This document shows positions 3,001 through 9,000 of a DNA stretch of 64,000 nt, one piece after another. The position numbers were made by a program. Position 1 is the first letter of the stretch, and every line of letters begins with the position of its first letter. Source of the DNA: Thalia democratica (Eukaryota); the NCBI GenBank assembly GCA_965202585.1, contig OZ241831.1:44082001-44146000 (forward strand), given 5' to 3'.

Positions 3001-6000
3001 GCAGCGACTCTCTCTCCTTGCCCATCTCGTTCTTCTCACTAGACGTGTGTTGAACTTTGTTAGTAATGTGTATTTAAAGTTTTAACATGCTTATGATTTA
3101 AAAACTCTTCTTTTAGCTTCTAATGAGGATTTTTTTTTTGTATATTTGCCAACATAAACAGCTTATTTTCAAGTACCAGTAATTAAGCTTAGTTTATATA
3201 TAAGTATATAAATATCGAAAATTTATTTTAATGGTCAGTAACAACTGATGTACATCCAAACACAAACTCACCTTCCAACGACTTCTGCCGACGACTTGTA
3301 CCTGTAAGCGTCCCTCTTGGCGTCCTCCTTCGCTCTGGTGGTCGTGTCCAGGTCCTCTCTGATGGACAGGAGCTGCTTCTCCAGCATGTGCTTGCTGTGG
3401 TCCGCATCAGCCACCTGCTTCTTCAGCGCCGCGTTCGAATCCTTGGCCGCGTCCAATTTGGCTCGAAGCTCCTGATTTTTGGTTTAAAGTTAATTACTTA
3501 CTGCAAAGGTCAGAGTTGTTGTCGGTAAAAGTTTTTTGTTAATACTTTTGCAGTTAGTTTCAAAAGAGTTTTTTTTTGTGAATCTGTCGTGTTTTGAAAC
3601 GTCTTGTTTTTGACGAGATATTTACTTTCTTAATTGTAATGATAAACTTTATCAGTTTTGTTATGCAGGTTACCCACTTTTAATTAAGTTTTATGTGGTA
3701 GGTATTTTTTCATGTTTTTTGGAACATCAAGTGTTTTAATTTAATCAAAAAAAAAAATTGCAGAGTGGTTCTTTGCTTTTACATTTTTGTAATATATGTA
3801 AACCAGAACTGTTAACGTGATTGTTATGAAGATTTTCAAGAGAGCTATATACGTTATAAGAGGCACTTAACATAAGTGAAAACAGTTAAAAATATTTGCA
3901 AAACCAAAAAATTCTTTTTTGAATATTTTGTAGTGGTAAAATGTAAACAAACTTTACGAAACTGTACATAAAAACCAGTTCGAACATTAATTTGAAGCTT
4001 TTTGGGTTTATACCAATGAATAGTCTTACTAAAACCGATATTCGTTTAGGAATTTATTAAAAAGGTGCTTTACTTCATGAATATTAAACGCCTAAATGTT
4101 TTAGAAACACTACAACTATGTAATTTCAAACTGCAAAAAAATAAATGCATACAAATGCAAATGCCTAATAAACCGCCAACAACCAATAGTTTAATAATCT
4201 GTAAAGTAATCATTTCTTGAGTAGTCGTACTTTATAAGTTGTTCTAATTGCACAAACAGAAGCTGTTTTTGATTACATCATTCAATTCGGCAACAACACA
4301 TAATACATCATTAAAGTCAGTTAAATGTTGTTTTATTCAATTAATAATACAAATTCTTCTAAGGCATGGTAGTATACACCAACCTGAACTTGCAGCTGTC
4401 TCTTCTGCAATGCGGCCTGCACCGCGTGGTACGTCGAATCTGCGAACGACGGGGAAACTCCTCTCGCTGCCGGGGATCTCCCTCTTCTCGGTGACCTTCT
4501 ACCGCCTGGTGACGGCGACCTTATCGGGGAATACCCACGACTGTAAGAATGAGTTTTAATTTAGATTTTAAAATAACATGTTATTAAACTTTTTTTTTAG
4601 TAGTAAAAGTATCAAGCTTTTCAAAAATGAATGATACTAAATAAAAAATAGTAATTGTCCTTCAGATCAATAAAAATAACTTTAAGTACATAAAATTTAC
4701 CTCTAAGTAAAACAACTGATATAGTCTTCATGAATCTAAAAAAAATTCTGTTAAAACCATATGAATATTATAGTATGTAAAAACATTACTACAGTTTCTT
4801 AAAGCATACCATGAACAAAATGCATTAAATTAAAAAAAACTCGATAAAAGACACTATACTCTAACAAAGTAAACCTTTCGTTTATGCAAGCTTCCTTCAA
4901 GCTCGCTTTAGCCAGCGCCTTCGCGTCACTCTTACTCTTATCCAGTTCCCTTTCCAGGCTGCTGAAATCGCACCTGCTTTTACTCCGGTGCTTCACCAAT
5001 AAATCCCTCAGCGCCGGATGCCAGTCTTTCAAGTCTTTGGTCGACGAGTTGAGCCTGCTGTCCCTGATCAGCTTCTCGCTCGCCTCTATCATGCTCTGCA
5101 CGCTACTAATGCTCCCGATCATCTCCTTCTTGTTCTTGAACGAGTTGTTGAACACCGACTCGGTTTCAACTTGCCTCTGCTCCCTCACTTTACGCTCGTT
5201 TATGTCTATCAGCCTCTGCACGCTCGTGCTCCTGCTTCTGATCCTGGTCGCCGGTTTCGCTTCCACGGCGCTGGCAGAAGCCTGGTTGGCGGAGCTGTCG
5301 TCTTCGAACGACGAGTTGCCGACGAAGCTGTCGTTTCTGACTTCCATCGACTTCCGGGCTCGCTGCAACATCGGCGACCCGAAGCCGCTGTCGTCACAGT
5401 TCTCACCCCTGCCGGGCTCCTCCGAGAACGCCTCGACCAGCGAAATTTTCCTGCCCTGCCGCTGGACGCTGCGCTTCTTCGGCGTCGGCTTCGGCGTGCT
5501 GCCGTGAACCTTGTTGGTTCTGTACGACATGACAACAAAGCTCGAAACAAAAAACTTTCTTTTCAAATAAAACTTTAAAATTTAGTCTCAACAACTTTTT
5601 CTGCGAACAAATTCGGTCTAAAACTAAACTTTGAAGCTAAATAAACGCAAATACTACTGTGAAGGTATCGCACTGCCAGCTCAACTGAAATTAAACTAAG
5701 TGAAAGTGATTTGCAACCGAACGACAAATTACCCAATGTCAAGTGCACGCCGAAAAAGCTCTTCAGCTCAAACGAGCTTGCAATTGTCAAAAGAAAAGGC
5801 ACAAAAAGCAGAAAGGCTGAGAGCAATTTGTTTTCGCGTTCTGTGGCTGGCTGCCACAGAAGAGAGGGAAATTCGTCGAGGGCCCTTGAAAATTTTCTGC
5901 ACAAAACAGATTTCGCCCGGACTGTTGAGAGGTGCTCTTGTGTGAGGGGCAGAAAATAAGTAACAGTGGCAGAAAATAGCTGGTGTGCAGCCACTTTGGG

Positions 6001-9000
6001 TTATTTTATTTTTCTGCTTCAAGTTCAACGCTCCCTTTTTACGTTGCTACGTGAACTGGTCGAAACGTATACTAATTTTAGTAACATAGTTATTTACATA
6101 TTTTTTTAAAAGGCAAACAAATCTAACGATTCTAATAAGACTGCTACTCGTAAAGCAAACTATTTCTGTAAAAAAAAAAAAACTCTTTTTGCACAATAAG
6201 CTAGTAAATAAAATTTTTATACTGTCACTAAAAATGAATAAATAAAAATTCGATTGTTTTTTTAATATTTTCGATACTTTTGTTAAATACAACTAATAAT
6301 ATAAAAAACATCCTAGATTGTTTTTTTAAATTCTTGCTTTATAACTTTAACCTTGTAAGTGAACTCAACTTAATTCAAACTTAAAATAATACAAAAACAA
6401 ATGACAAAGATGAAATAAGTCTAACAAAGCTGTAGAGTTCAATGCTGTAACCATTTAAAAGTACTAAAAAAACTAAATTTCATCTATGTATTAAACTAGA
6501 CAAATGTTTTTTGTCTTACATAAATAAAAAAATCATCAACACTAACGTGGGAGACACGCTGAGCCCCATGTCGTTCATGCTCTCGCTCAGCTCAGTGACG
6601 GCACTTGCGGGTTTCATCTGATCGTCGCTGAGCGCCATGGCCAGGTCCGCGTCCGCTATGACCGACTGCGCGATGTCCCTGAGCGCCTGCTCGATCATCG
6701 CCTTGTCGTCCCTCAGCTTGGCCATCGTCTCCACGTCCTCTTCCTCCTCTTCCACCCGGGTAGATTCCTGTGCGTTGGTTGTGACAATAAAAAAACGAAT
6801 GAACAAAAAGGTCAGTTCAAACAAGTTCTTATTCAAATGGCACATTTTCCATTAAATAATATTTTTTAACTTTTGTAATGTTACGTGTTGTTTATTGCTT
6901 GTTGAAACTTTTTGCTGCATCAGCTTTTGGATCAAGAAGATTTATGGTCAATTTAAGCAAGGGCTTTCTGAAGTGGGCGATATTACCCTTATGGTGGAGG
7001 TATTGACTATTAAAGGCGTTAACAACTAGTACGGGGTGAAAAATTAAAAGGGTATTTCAATAGCAAAGGAGCCAATATTTTTGTATCTTTTGCAAAAAAA
7101 GAACATAAAAATGATTTTGTGAAACTCTTCTGTGAGCGAGTAATTATTTGTACGCTGGTTATAAACTGAATCCGTAAATTTCTCAACGTAAACACTTACT
7201 TGCGGAATGGACAGGTTGAGTTGGTTGATGGTGCAGTCTTTTTCGTCGTTCTGTTTCTGAAGTCTCTCTGTGGCGACAGTCAGTTCGTTGATCTTGGCGT
7301 TCAGCGCTGCTTTCTCCGTATCGAAATCAGATTGCATCTGTAGCATTTCTTTCACCTGTTTAATATACAAGATTTAATAGATTGTGAAATTTATTACATT
7401 TTTTTAAACAATTGTTTTCATAAGTTAAAACGTAACTTTTAAACACGTTTCATATTTGATGATATTGTGCTATTTACAACAATGAAAAAAAAAGGAAGTC
7501 TGTCTAAATACTTTTCCAAATACAAAATAGAGCTTTTGTACCAAAGTCAAACGTCTTGTAATTAAACTTCGAAAATTTAAATACACATAAGACAAAAAAA
7601 TAATATGTAAAATTACTTTAAATCTTCTACTACCCCTTTTTTTTATTTACACTTAAAAAAAAACACGCCTTTTCTCTCAGCTGATCTTCGACTCCGCTCT
7701 TCTCTCCTCTTTCTTTCTCAAGAGAGACTTTAGCGGACGAGTCCTGAACATTCTGATTGGCTCCGAGGTTCAAGCAGGCGGCGTGAAGTTGACGGGCACC
7801 TCTCTGTGTAAATACACAATTGTAACACAGACATATATCTAACTGTTTGTATGGTATACGAAAAGAAGAATGCGCTTATTTGAACCTTTTGGATGAAAAT
7901 ATAAAAACATATGCTGTAGCGAAGTTTAAAAGCACAATCTTCTTACTACTTTTTAACAATTTAAAAGACTATCAATGTTATCTAAGTTAGATATATTGCA
8001 TTTTGTATACATTAGATTGGTGGCGTATTTAGAGTAAAGGTAGGCATGGTAAGCAACTAAATACAAGTAGTAAATTGCAAAATCCCACCTGGACATCATT
8101 GATAGCTTCGTTCAGGTTGGTCTGAGTGCTGGACTTGAGATCGGTGAATCCCCTTCTGATCTGCACCACTGCCCTCCACAATGCCAGCAATCTGCTGTGC
8201 TCGTCACCAAAGTACGTGCTAAAGTTCTATGAAAGAAGTTATATAAATTTAAAACTTCAAATGTGTCTGTCCTACTATGTTCTTATACAATAAATAGGGA
8301 CAGTAAGTTATACAGTTTTTAGTTAGATCAAACAGAACTATTTTCTAAATAATGTTTACGCCTACTATAAATCTGTACACGAAAACGAACTAAATTTTAT
8401 GGTTTCTGGCTACTTTAAGTAAAATTGTTCAACTTACCACGTGAGTTTAGTAAAAAACATTTTTTGTCAGGAAAAAAATTTAAACAAAATTATTTTGAGT
8501 TAACCGAAACTACTTTTGTAGACTAAAATTTTATATTTATTATTATTACGTCATACAAAATCCTCACCTCTTGTTCTTCCTTCCACTGCTGCTCCGTCGT
8601 CTTCAGTTTCTCCTGAACGTCTTCGAAGTCCTGCTGGCACTTTTGCAGGTCGTCGGTCACTTTCTTCATGTCCTCACTCATCTTCTCGTTGCCCTCGTTC
8701 GCCGCTTGCAGTTGTTCGCGCAACATCGCGTTCACCTCCGCAAGACTTTCGGCTCTGAAGAAAAAAAATACAGTTTGTCTACTGTTAGGTACTTTGAAAC
8801 CTTAAACACCATTTGAATTGTGGAAACGGATCACAAATGCACGGAGCGTCACTTTTGCATTAAATTGTTTCAATTAATTTAGTAATTTAAAACTTTTTAT
8901 GTTTGAAATGTTGTTTTTAAATAAATAAATACTTTCGTACGAACCATAACTGTATATATATTTTATTATATTAAACTTGGAAATAAGTTTCGGTTATTGC

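What the first reader, a model, noticed from the sequence alone, without database searches (positions are those of the whole stretch)
4875..6060. Hidden 218-228-codon exon that could give rootletin an alternative head
Seen: exon 6547-6767 splices in frame directly to 4384-4540, yet the intron holds a stop-free GC-rich ORF (ATG 5530) ending in a phase-2 donor that also fits exon 4384-4540. Two weak acceptors (5541-5542, 5559-5560) give symmetric 666/684-nt cassette options, and a CpG-rich block (5620-6060) lies just upstream. The peptide is Ser/Arg-rich, low complexity and ends in a short amphipathic helix; from memory it has no counterpart at this position in human CROCC. Inference: either an alternative first exon (an isoform lacking the whole N-terminal head and Rootletin domain but keeping the polymerising coiled-coil tail) or a large lineage-specific cassette.
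Basis: partly seen in the sequence, partly recalled or inferred. Interest (0 to 1): 0.68.

Follow-up and report, generated by a model that had tools for sequence, protein, structure and literature searches.

The report
Hidden alternative start exon in rootletin
A conserved protein-coding exon lies inside an intron of an invertebrate rootletin gene and probably yields a rootletin that swaps its usual head for a new 218-residue start, but no transcript data were available to prove this.

Summary
On the minus strand, ATG 5530 opens 218 codons + 2 nt ending at AAG|GTTTAC (4875/4874). This is in phase with rootletin exon 4540-4384, which exon 6767-6547 also joins directly.

It is coding:
- GC1/2/3 = .45/.45/.80, against 22% GC introns.
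- The gene's own sense/antisense codon asymmetry picks the minus strand.
- Three unnamed database proteins (P0002, P0003, P0006; 83-97% identical) keep the same Met and frame, and lose similarity shortly after the donor.

No family, structure or other homologue was found.

An alternative 5' coding exon is favoured over a cassette:
- An in-frame TAA lies 17 codons upstream.
- A 557-nt ATG-free leader is the longest ATG gap on that strand.
- The two in-frame acceptors score -8.9 and -0.4.
- A spliced-looking relative (P0005) has no insert.

The product would lack the Rootletin domain, like the engineered RootDEL and R234 constructs.

Unproven: the transcription start, the junctions, and the choice between donor 4875 and a stronger in-phase donor at 4974. 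The "CpG-rich" claim is not upheld (o/e 0.79). The window is not human. The joined isoform was not built.

The parts
6547..6767 (-). Last canonical head-side rootletin exon (221 nt, ends two bases into a codon). It would be bypassed by the alternative isoform.
   Evidence: Reading and frames. It matches residues 99-147 of P0005 (E 7e-5).
6165..6167 (-). Acceptor-like site T13ACAG|AAA (AG at 6167-6166, possible exon start at 6165), just upstream of the GC-richer block.
   Evidence: It scores 8.7 and ranks first of 149 AG sites in 4880-6540. The 13 known acceptors score -2.3 to 7.9 in leave-one-out. About 23 sites of this score occur in the 64 kb window, training sites included.
5531..6060 (-). 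Non-coding leader-like block, 41% GC, presumed 5' UTR and/or promoter of the alternative exon.
   Evidence: No codon periodicity, and stops in all six frames. Unique within the window. No Rfam family: only one chance-level match at E 0.39, outside the block. Zero ATG in 530 nt, and the ATG gap 6087->5530 of 557 nt is the longest of 790 on this strand.
5582..5584 (-). In-frame TAA, 17 codons upstream of the ATG.
4875..5530 (-). Coding part of the hidden exon: ATG 5530-5528, then 218 codons + 2 nt (protein P0001).
   Evidence: GC1/2/3 of .45/.445/.80. Sense/antisense log-likelihood ratio (LLR) of +0.49 bits/codon. Relatives P0002, P0003 and P0006 keep the frame.
4972..4973 (-). GT of an internal, stronger donor in the same phase, CAG|GTGCGA (exon end at 4974).
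   Evidence: Score 13.1, which only 9 of 3543 GT sites in the window reach. The 32 codons after it still have GC3 0.62 and stay conserved.
4873..4874 (-). GT of the proposed donor AAG|GTTTAC (exon end at 4875).
   Evidence: Score 2.2, equal to the weakest of the 12 known donors (AAG|GTTTTG at 2394). It ranks 11th of 52 GT sites in 4545-5530. Composition and conservation both drop here.
4541..4874 (-). Intron between the hidden exon and the shared exon (334 nt, 21.6% GC).
   Evidence: The read-through frame has GC3 0.24 and stops at 4801-4799.
4384..4540 (-). Shared rootletin exon at the head/rod boundary: Arg-Ser-Pro-rich, then ...HAVQAALQKRQLQVQ.
   Evidence: It is 87% identical to P0004 and 85% to P0005.

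Best explanation
The block 4875-5530 is a real protein-coding exon of the rootletin gene, limited to a narrow lineage. It most likely acts as an alternative 5' coding exon.

Proposed mechanism (inferred). A transcript starts inside the head/rod intron, or enters the block from an upstream non-coding leader through the acceptor-like site at 6165. It carries a roughly 530-nt ATG-free leader and starts translation at ATG 5530. It then splices from 4875 (or from the in-phase donor at 4974) to exon 4540.

Predicted product. Rootletin in which the canonical head is replaced by a new 218-residue N-terminus. The head lost is at least 370 codons in the six upstream exons I delineated, including the whole Rootletin domain. 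The new N-terminus has a disordered Ser/Arg/Lys-rich first half and a strongly conserved helical second half. The rod stays intact.

Shown here: the open frame, the phase, the coding signature, the coding strand, and conservation in relatives.

Inferred: the transcription start, the splice junction and the function.

Expected behaviour, by analogy with engineered head-less forms. Such a protein should still self-associate through the rod. It should reach centrioles or basal bodies, or co-assemble with full-length rootletin. It should lack what the head provides: kinesin light chain and nesprin binding in mammals, and rootlet assembly in Drosophila.
For: 1. Anatomy. ATG 5530, an in-frame TAA 17 codons upstream, a two-base overhang at the donor that matches exon 4540, and the canonical direct junction 6547->4540.

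2. Coding signal. GC3 is 0.80 against GC1/2 of 0.45, similar to neighbouring exon 6767-6549 (0.84). GC3 stays at 0.62-0.88 in every 33-codon block from the ATG to 4889, then falls to 0.24 in the read-through tail.

3. Strand. A sense-versus-antisense codon LLR was trained on 15 rootletin exon pieces (866 codons). The minus frame scores +0.49 bits/codon, and all 15 known exons score +0.28 to +1.26 in leave-one-out. The plus frame scores -0.37, and all 15 known antisense frames score -0.20 to -1.13. Purine at codon position 1 is 0.72 against 0.40.

4. Conservation. The only hits in 1.84 billion cluster representatives and in the 5.8-billion set are P0002, P0003 and its variant P0006.
- All start at the same Met.
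- Six indel events are all tolerated with the frame still open.
- Exon identity is 204 of 211 aligned residues (P0002) and 180 of 216 (P0003).
- Residues 121-218 are 96/98 and 91/98 identical.
- Beyond the first five read-through residues, P0003 identity falls to 4 of 13 and the tails differ in length.

5. Start exon rather than cassette.
- The 557-nt ATG-free stretch 6087->5530 is the longest of 790 gaps on this strand. None of 5000 mononucleotide shuffles had zero ATG.
- The leader block has no codon periodicity.
- The in-frame acceptors score -8.9 (5540; G at -3, seen in 0 of 13 known acceptors; rank 115 of 149) and -0.4 (5558; rank 41 of 149).
- P0005 is colinear with window exons 6767-6547, 4540-4384 and 3471-. 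Only 16 residues separate the first two matches.

6. Donor type. T at intron +3 occurs in 7 of 12 known donors of this gene, and AAG|GTTTTG is used at 2394.

7. Function by analogy, from passages read.
- Mouse R234, which lacks the head, still forms robust filaments, but they do not radiate from the MTOC (microtubule-organising centre). The head binds KLC3 (PMC2173070).
- Drosophila RootDEL (residues 1-333 deleted) reaches basal bodies and existing rootlets but cannot build rootlets or rescue the mutant (PMC4621839).
- The coiled-coil rod segments CC2-CC4 self-interact but the N-terminal segment CC1 does not. The N-terminus binds KLC3 and Nesprin1 (PMC11623930).
Against:
- The relatives are unnamed ORF calls on short contigs (905-1138 nt) whose DNA I could not see. 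There is therefore no dN/dS, no view of their leaders, and the shared Met may partly reflect ORF-caller rules.
- Donor 4875 scores only 2.2. This ties the weakest known donor, and 501 of 3543 GT sites in the window score as high. A much better donor in the same phase lies at 4974 (13.1).
- The splice matrices rest on 12 and 13 sites that I picked from frames and composition, not from transcripts.
- The best acceptor-like site of the intron (6165) sits just upstream of the block, so it may be an internal exon.
- ATG depletion is partly a dinucleotide effect: 89 of 5000 first-order Markov simulations also had zero ATG.
- No promoter evidence beyond two Inr (initiator core-promoter motif)-like matches (A at 6057 and 5686). 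CpG o/e is 0.79. There is no X-box or CRE (TGACGTCA, cAMP-response-element palindrome) in the block.
- My first codon-usage test did not separate the strands. The wobble-aligned plus frame scored higher (0.455) than the sense frame (0.286 bits/codon). A 219-codon plus-strand frame (4848-5504) is open.
- The 'longer' search found no annotated long protein carrying this peptide: 0 of 1413 candidates, limited to 383-2000 aa.
- The ESM Atlas recognition value was low (1296) and gave no usable hit.
Confidence: 0.6

Rival explanations
1. Stand-alone nested gene. The frame is translated unspliced from ATG 5530 to the stop at 4801-4799 (244 residues), from its own transcript inside the rootletin intron. 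It never joins rootletin exons.
For: P0002, P0003 and P0006 are stored as such read-through ORFs. The donor at 4875 is weak. The peptide belongs to no known family, so nothing ties it to rootletin except position and phase.
Against: - The read-through tail has GC3 0.24 against 0.62-0.88 in the exon.
- Tail lengths differ: 26, 15 and 18 residues after ...INE.
- P0003 identity drops to 4 of 13 beyond the first five tail residues.
- The one difference between P0003 and P0006 lies in the tail.
- The coding signal ends exactly at a GT in the phase needed for the next rootletin exon.
Confidence: 0.12
2. Frame-preserving cassette. The block is entered from exon 6767-6547 through the AG at 5560-5559 (684 nt) or 5542-5541 (666 nt). 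This would insert 222-228 residues between the head and the RSP exon of full-length rootletin.
For: Both lengths are multiples of three and the frame is open from 5581. Acceptor 5558 scores -0.4, which is above 2 of the 13 known acceptors in leave-one-out.
Against: - Acceptor 5540 scores -8.9 and has G at -3, seen in 0 of 13 known acceptors. Acceptor 5558 ranks 41st of 149 AG sites.
- The stretch 5600-5551 is 18% GC, and the frame block 5581-5483 has GC1 of 0.24, so coding character starts near the ATG.
- P0005 shows the head exon followed by the RSP exon with no insert. It comes from a more distant taxon.
Confidence: 0.08
3. Internal exon included in canonical transcripts. It is entered at 6165 from exon 6767-6547. 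It would then stop the canonical frame early, giving a head-only product or a decay target, and ATG 5530 would go unused.
For: T13ACAG|AAA at 6165 is the best acceptor-like site in the intron (8.7, rank 1 of 149). GC content starts to rise there.
Against: - It does not explain the strong coding signature, or the conservation of 218 codons downstream of a premature stop.
- About 23 sites of this score occur in the 64 kb window, so one in a 1.7-kb intron is not rare.
- Entry at 6165 adds two upstream ATGs at 6099 and 6087.
Confidence: 0.06
4. Not a gene on this strand. It would be either a chance or decaying open frame, or a plus-strand gene using the 219-codon frame 4848-5504.
For: The plus frame is open and shares the wobble positions. 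It scored higher in the first codon-usage test. The ESM recognition value for P0001 is low.
Against: - The same kind of open antisense frame covers known rootletin exons, for example 937-1206, 3308-3472, 6622-6852 and 28100-28297.
- The sense/antisense LLR puts the plus frame with the antisense frames of all 15 known exons.
- The plus translation is 52 Leu and 38 Ser among 217 codons.
- Three relatives conserve the minus-strand protein.
Confidence: 0.05

Closest known systems
Drosophila RootDEL, an engineered Root lacking residues 1-333 (Chen et al. 2015, PMC4621839; passages read)
   Same: It removes the whole conserved Rootletin domain and keeps everything from the head/rod boundary onward. 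That is the same cut the hidden exon would make.
   Different: RootDEL is a laboratory construct with a fluorescent tag. The case here would be a natural isoform with its own conserved 218-residue N-terminus. The species differs and the isoform is untested.
Mouse rootletin R234, residues 501-2009 (Yang et al. 2002, PMC2173070; passages read)
   Same: A head-less rootletin that keeps the polymerising rod.
   Different: It is an engineered fragment whose cut lies further into the protein. It has no replacement N-terminal module.
[quoted passage not shown]
   Same: Several 5' ends within one rootletin gene of an arthropod.
   Different: Those transcripts differ only in the 5' UTR and encode the same 2048-residue protein. 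Here the alternative 5' exon would change the protein.
C-Nap1/CEP250, the vertebrate paralogue of rootletin
   Same: A rootletin-like rod protein with a distinct role at the proximal ends of centrioles. Drosophila has a single orthologue of both. An isoform with another N-terminus could therefore split such roles within one gene.
   Different: C-Nap1 is a separate gene and keeps a Rootletin-type N-terminal domain. No similarity of P0001 to any protein outside its close relatives was found.

Membership tests
Rootletin (CROCC/Root) gene, as host locus | Pfam Rootletin domain PF15035 in the N-terminal exons | tested here: met
   Exon frames 8523-8801 (40.4 bits, cut-off 36) and 8029-8226 (49 bits) pass. 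Frame 11608-11772 gives 19.6 bits, below the cut-off.
Rootletin (CROCC/Root) gene, as host locus | Head/rod boundary exon and rod exons colinear with relatives | tested here: met
   P0005 matches window exons 6767-6547, 4540-4384 and 3471- in order. Exon 4540-4384 is 85-87% identical to P0004 and P0005.
Alternative 5' coding exon (internal promoter isoform) | Own start codon with an upstream in-frame stop, and a donor in phase with the shared downstream exon | tested here: met
   ATG 5530, TAA 5584-5582, 656 nt to AAG|GT, and a two-base overhang that fits exon 4540.
Alternative 5' coding exon (internal promoter isoform) | Coding signature and conservation of the exon | tested here: met
   GC3 0.80. 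Strand LLR +0.49. Three relatives keep the frame through six indels.
Alternative 5' coding exon (internal promoter isoform) | A transcription start or leader upstream of the ATG | tested here: inconclusive
   There is a 557-nt ATG-free leader, the longest of 790 gaps, but zero ATG also occurred in 89 of 5000 Markov simulations. CpG is not enriched and there are only two Inr-like matches. An acceptor-like site sits at 6165.
Alternative 5' coding exon (internal promoter isoform) | Transcripts with the junction 4875->4540 | not testable with these tools
Frame-preserving cassette exon | A usable acceptor in frame with the upstream exon | tested here: inconclusive
   Acceptor 5540 scores -8.9, outside the known range. 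Acceptor 5558 scores -0.4, inside the range -2.3 to 7.9 but ranked 41st of 149.
Frame-preserving cassette exon | The insert is present in spliced products of relatives | tested here: not met
   P0005 has only 16 residues between the head-exon match and the RSP-exon match. This is one taxon, and not a close one.
Any described protein family for the 218-residue peptide | A significant match to a profile, a solved structure or a cluster | tested here: not met
   Pfam gave 0 families at E<=0.1. PDB gave 0 at E<=10. The ESM Atlas gave no usable hit. The representatives search gave only P0002.
Stand-alone nested intronic gene | A conserved C-terminus and stop codon | tested here: not met
   The read-through tails differ in length and sequence, and tail GC3 is 0.24.

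The most novel reading that the evidence does not exclude
Head-less rootletin isoforms with fast-evolving N-terminal modules, born inside the head/rod intron, are a recurrent feature of this arthropod-like clade. Two observations point this way: the exon found here, and an unrelated 200-residue open frame that runs straight into the same RSP exon in another taxon (P0004). These isoforms would divide rootlet-building and centriole-linker (C-Nap1-like) or regulatory roles between products of a single gene.
Probability: 0.15. Interest if true: 0.65.

Novelty: new variant of a known kind. Interest (0 to 1): 0.45.

Why it matters
Rootletin's head has been studied only through engineered deletions, and they disagree. 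In mouse cells the head is dispensable for filament formation. In Drosophila it is essential for rootlet assembly.

A natural, conserved isoform that replaces the head with another module would show that cells use the head-less form on purpose. It would also provide a handle, through isoform-specific tagging or deletion, to ask what the head and the rod each do in vivo.

It is also a clean example of a young coding exon arising inside an intron of an old structural gene. Practically, it is a coding exon that gene models built from homology alone would miss.

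Tried and rejected
- Pfam, PDB sequence search and ESM Atlas on P0001: nothing.
- 'Longer' search for a long protein carrying the peptide: 0 of 1413 candidates. The range was capped at 2000 aa, so this is weak.
- Codon-usage score against a mononucleotide background did not separate the strands, and the plus frame scored higher. I replaced it with a sense/antisense contrast.
- P0001 against the N-terminal 200 residues of P0004: BLASTP best E 6.1, hhalign probability 0.14%. 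No homology. ESM Atlas on that part of P0004 gave only a 0.76 lead to an arthropod 'hypothetical protein' cluster.
- tblastn of P0001 on the window found only itself. BLASTP self-comparison found no internal repeat.
- Rfam on 4300-6900 gave one chance-level hit at E 0.39. The whole window at gathering scores gave none. No tRNAs.
- The leader block is not a repeat within the window.
- X-box pattern: 32 matches against 22.7 expected, none in the block. TGACGTCA: none in the block.
- Fold search was not run, because the model is poor (mean pLDDT 56, pTM 0.19).
- Homodimer prediction of residues 98-218 was not run. The tool's queue was full at every attempt.
- Literature: searches listed no paper describing a natural head-less rootletin isoform. 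I judged this from titles, abstract starts and the passages I opened. Supplements were not seen.

Full report
**Setting.** The window has no N and averages 27% GC, with introns near 22%. I do not take it for human. No human sequence was fetched or compared. The organism stayed unidentified: the only related database entries are unnamed, and one weak ESM Atlas lead points to arthropods.

A rootletin gene runs on the minus strand from at least 28.3 kb to the window's start.
- Pfam Rootletin (PF15035) passes its cut-off in the exon frames 8523-8801 and 8029-8226. It gives a sub-threshold match in 11608-11772.
- A likely first coding exon starts at ATG 28290.

All searches were made exon by exon. 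I did not build, translate, search or fold the joined isoform.

**The observation.** It is correct as read on the minus strand.
- Exon 6767-6547 (221 nt) ends two bases into a codon at CAC|GTTAGT.
- Exon 4540-4384 (157 nt) completes that codon and reads RGYSPIRSPSP...HAVQAALQKRQLQVQ.
- The intron between them holds a stop-to-stop frame of 260 codons (5581-4802).
- From ATG 5530 there are 218 codons + 2 nt up to AAG|GTTTAC, the same phase.
- TAA at 5584-5582 closes the frame 17 codons upstream of the ATG.
- The AGs at 5542-5541 and 5560-5559 give 666- and 684-nt frame-preserving options.
- A frame this long was reached by 3 of 2000 shuffles of 4799-5581, and by none of 1000 shuffles of the GC-rich island.
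- The island 4827-6079 is the longest GC-rich stretch of the window.

**Is it coding, and on which strand?** GC at codon positions 1/2/3 is 0.45/0.445/0.80. The neighbouring exon 6767-6549 has 0.64/0.36/0.84. In 33-codon blocks GC3 stays at 0.62-0.88 from the ATG to 4889. It drops to 0.24 in the read-through tail.

A plus-strand frame of 219 codons (4848-5504) is also open. My first codon-usage score even preferred it: 0.455 against 0.286 bits/codon. That test is blind to strand here, because the gene's favourite codons are near-palindromic. The same wobble-aligned antisense frames are open over known rootletin exons.

A direct sense-versus-antisense contrast resolves the question. It was trained on 15 exon pieces (866 codons).
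- The minus frame scores +0.49 bits/codon. All 15 known exons score +0.28 to +1.26 in leave-one-out.
- The plus frame scores -0.37. All 15 known antisense frames score -0.20 to -1.13.

**Relatives.** Scoring P0001 against 1.84 billion cluster representatives gave one hit, P0002 (226 aa, 97% identity, E 4.6e-117). The word-indexed search of proteins of similar length gave P0002 and P0003 (236 aa, 82%; 2 hits of 181 candidates). P0006 differs from P0003 by one residue. All are unnamed entries on contigs of 905-1138 nt.
- They begin at the same MSYRTN.
- They keep the frame through six indel events.
- They run through the donor into intron-like sequence.
- Exon identity is 204/211 (P0002) and 180/216 (P0003).
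- Residues 121-218 are 96/98 and 91/98 identical. Residues 1-120 are 108/113 and 89/118 identical.
- After the first five read-through residues, P0003 keeps only 4 of 13. For P0002 the tail is 8 of 10, so that contrast is weak.
- The read-through tails have different lengths.
- The single P0003/P0006 difference lies in the tail.

This pattern fits a protein-coding exon that ends at the donor. I could not see the relatives' DNA, so there is no dN/dS.

**What the peptide is.** Nothing known. Pfam gave none, PDB none at E<=10 and the ESM Atlas no usable hit. There is no paralogous segment in the window. AlphaFold2 on the three-sequence alignment is poor overall (mean pLDDT 56, pTM 0.19).
- Residues 1-100 are predicted disordered.
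- Helices are predicted at 102-137 (pLDDT about 86), 141-160, 172-182, 190-197 and 203-216.
- An SVQ-led motif occurs three times, at residues 21, 103 and 143.

**First exon or cassette?** I delineated 12 donors and 13 acceptors of this gene from frames and composition, not from transcripts. I left out the ambiguous donor of exon 7803-7669 and the exons at 21.4 kb and 11.7 kb.

Evidence that favours a start exon:
- The cassette acceptors score -8.9 and -0.4. The first (5540) has G at -3, seen in 0 of 13 known acceptors, and ranks 115th of 149 intronic AG sites. The second (5558) ranks 41st. Known acceptors score -2.3 to 7.9 in leave-one-out.
- The stretch just upstream of the ATG is 18% GC.
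- The 530 nt upstream (5531-6060) are 41% GC, with no codon periodicity and stops in all frames. They are unique in the window, match no Rfam family, and contain no ATG.
- The ATG-free run 6087->5530 (557 nt) is the longest of 790 on this strand. None of 5000 mononucleotide shuffles had zero ATG, but 89 of 5000 first-order Markov simulations did.
- P0005, a spliced-looking fragment from a more distant taxon, matches window exons 6767-6547, 4540-4384 and 3471- in order. It has 16 residues between the first two matches, so it carries no insert.

Cautions:
- The donor at 4875 is weak (2.2). It ties the weakest known donor, AAG|GTTTTG at 2394, although T at +3 is normal here (7 of 12 donors).
- A much stronger donor in the same phase lies at 4974 (CAG|GTGCGA, 13.1; reached by 9 of 3543 GT sites). 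The 32 codons after it still look coding and conserved.
- T13ACAG|AAA at 6165 is the best acceptor-like site of the intron. The block may therefore be entered from an upstream leader exon rather than hold the TSS.
- The block is not CpG-enriched (o/e 0.79).

**How it probably works.** This part is inferred. Translation from ATG 5530 and splicing to exon 4540 would give a rootletin that lacks at least 370 codons of head. That figure is 1110 nt in the six upstream exons I delineated, plus the frames at 21.4 and 11.7 kb. The loss includes the whole Rootletin domain. The rod would be kept. Passages I read give the expected behaviour.
- Mouse R234, without the head, still forms robust filaments that no longer radiate from the MTOC. 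The head binds KLC3 (PMC2173070).
- CC2-CC4 self-interact but CC1 does not. The N-terminus is linked to KLC3 and Nesprin1 (PMC11623930).
- Drosophila RootDEL reaches basal bodies and joins existing rootlets, but cannot build rootlets or rescue the mutant. [quoted passage not shown]

The natural isoform here would thus be a co-assembling or centriole-bound rootletin with a new, conserved helical module in place of the head.

**Novelty.** My searches listed no description of such a natural isoform. I judged this from listings and opened passages only, and supplements were closed. No long protein with this peptide was found in the protein sets. An isoform clustered under a canonical representative, or one longer than 2000 aa, could have been missed. 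I rate it a new variant of a known kind: an alternative 5' exon in a known gene.

**What stayed unchecked.**
- Transcripts and transcription start sites.
- The relatives' DNA.
- A homodimer prediction, because the queue was full at every attempt.

Noticed in passing
window, minus-strand donors at 28018, 6547, 4384, 2856, 2394, 945, 498: Seven of the 12 delineated rootletin donors have T at intron position +3 (GTTAGT, GTTGGT, GTTTGT, GTTTTG, GTTAGA). That position is usually a purine in animals (recalled). This may be a property of this genome's splice sites.
   Followed up: partly
window 7651-7669, minus strand: Exon 7803-7669 appears to end at AAG|GCGTGT, a GC donor on a codon boundary. Alternatively it ends 18 nt later at AGT|GTAAAT. 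The two could not be told apart without transcripts.
   Followed up: no
window about 32800-54000: A unit of about 8.2-8.3 kb is repeated three times in tandem at 61-99% identity per block. Each copy holds two GC-richer islands of about 235 nt in opposite orientation, carrying a 44-codon open frame (VCMQLAVDTICTT...). No tRNA or Rfam match.
   Followed up: partly
window 9432-9773 and 13510-13923: Two GC-richer non-coding blocks inside rootletin introns carry all three TGACGTCA palindromes of the window (9556, 9611, 13828). The expected count is 0.33, and 0 of 100 shuffles reached 3. They look like CRE-bearing promoter or enhancer blocks.
   Followed up: partly
protein P0004 (unnamed, source Logan); matches window 4551-4372: In another taxon a 200-residue open frame runs unspliced straight into the same RSP exon. 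It is unrelated in sequence to P0001. It may be a second, independent alternative N-terminus at the same position in the gene.
   Followed up: partly
window 59277-59522, minus strand: An 82-codon open frame with GC3 0.83 that encodes a very hydrophobic peptide. No Pfam match. Probably an exon of another gene.
   Followed up: no
window 4848-5504, 937-1206, 3308-3472, 6622-6852, 28100-28297, plus strand: The wobble-aligned antisense frame is open across this exon and across known rootletin exons. It gives Leu/Ser-rich pseudo-proteins that an ORF caller could mistake for genes.
   Followed up: yes
P0001 residues 21, 103, 143 (window about 5470, 5224, 5104): An SVQ-led motif occurs three times. 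The second and third copies (SVQRLIDINERKVREQR and SVQSMIEASEKLIRDSR) each open a predicted helix. They share a 20-nt DNA match of 90% identity.
   Followed up: partly
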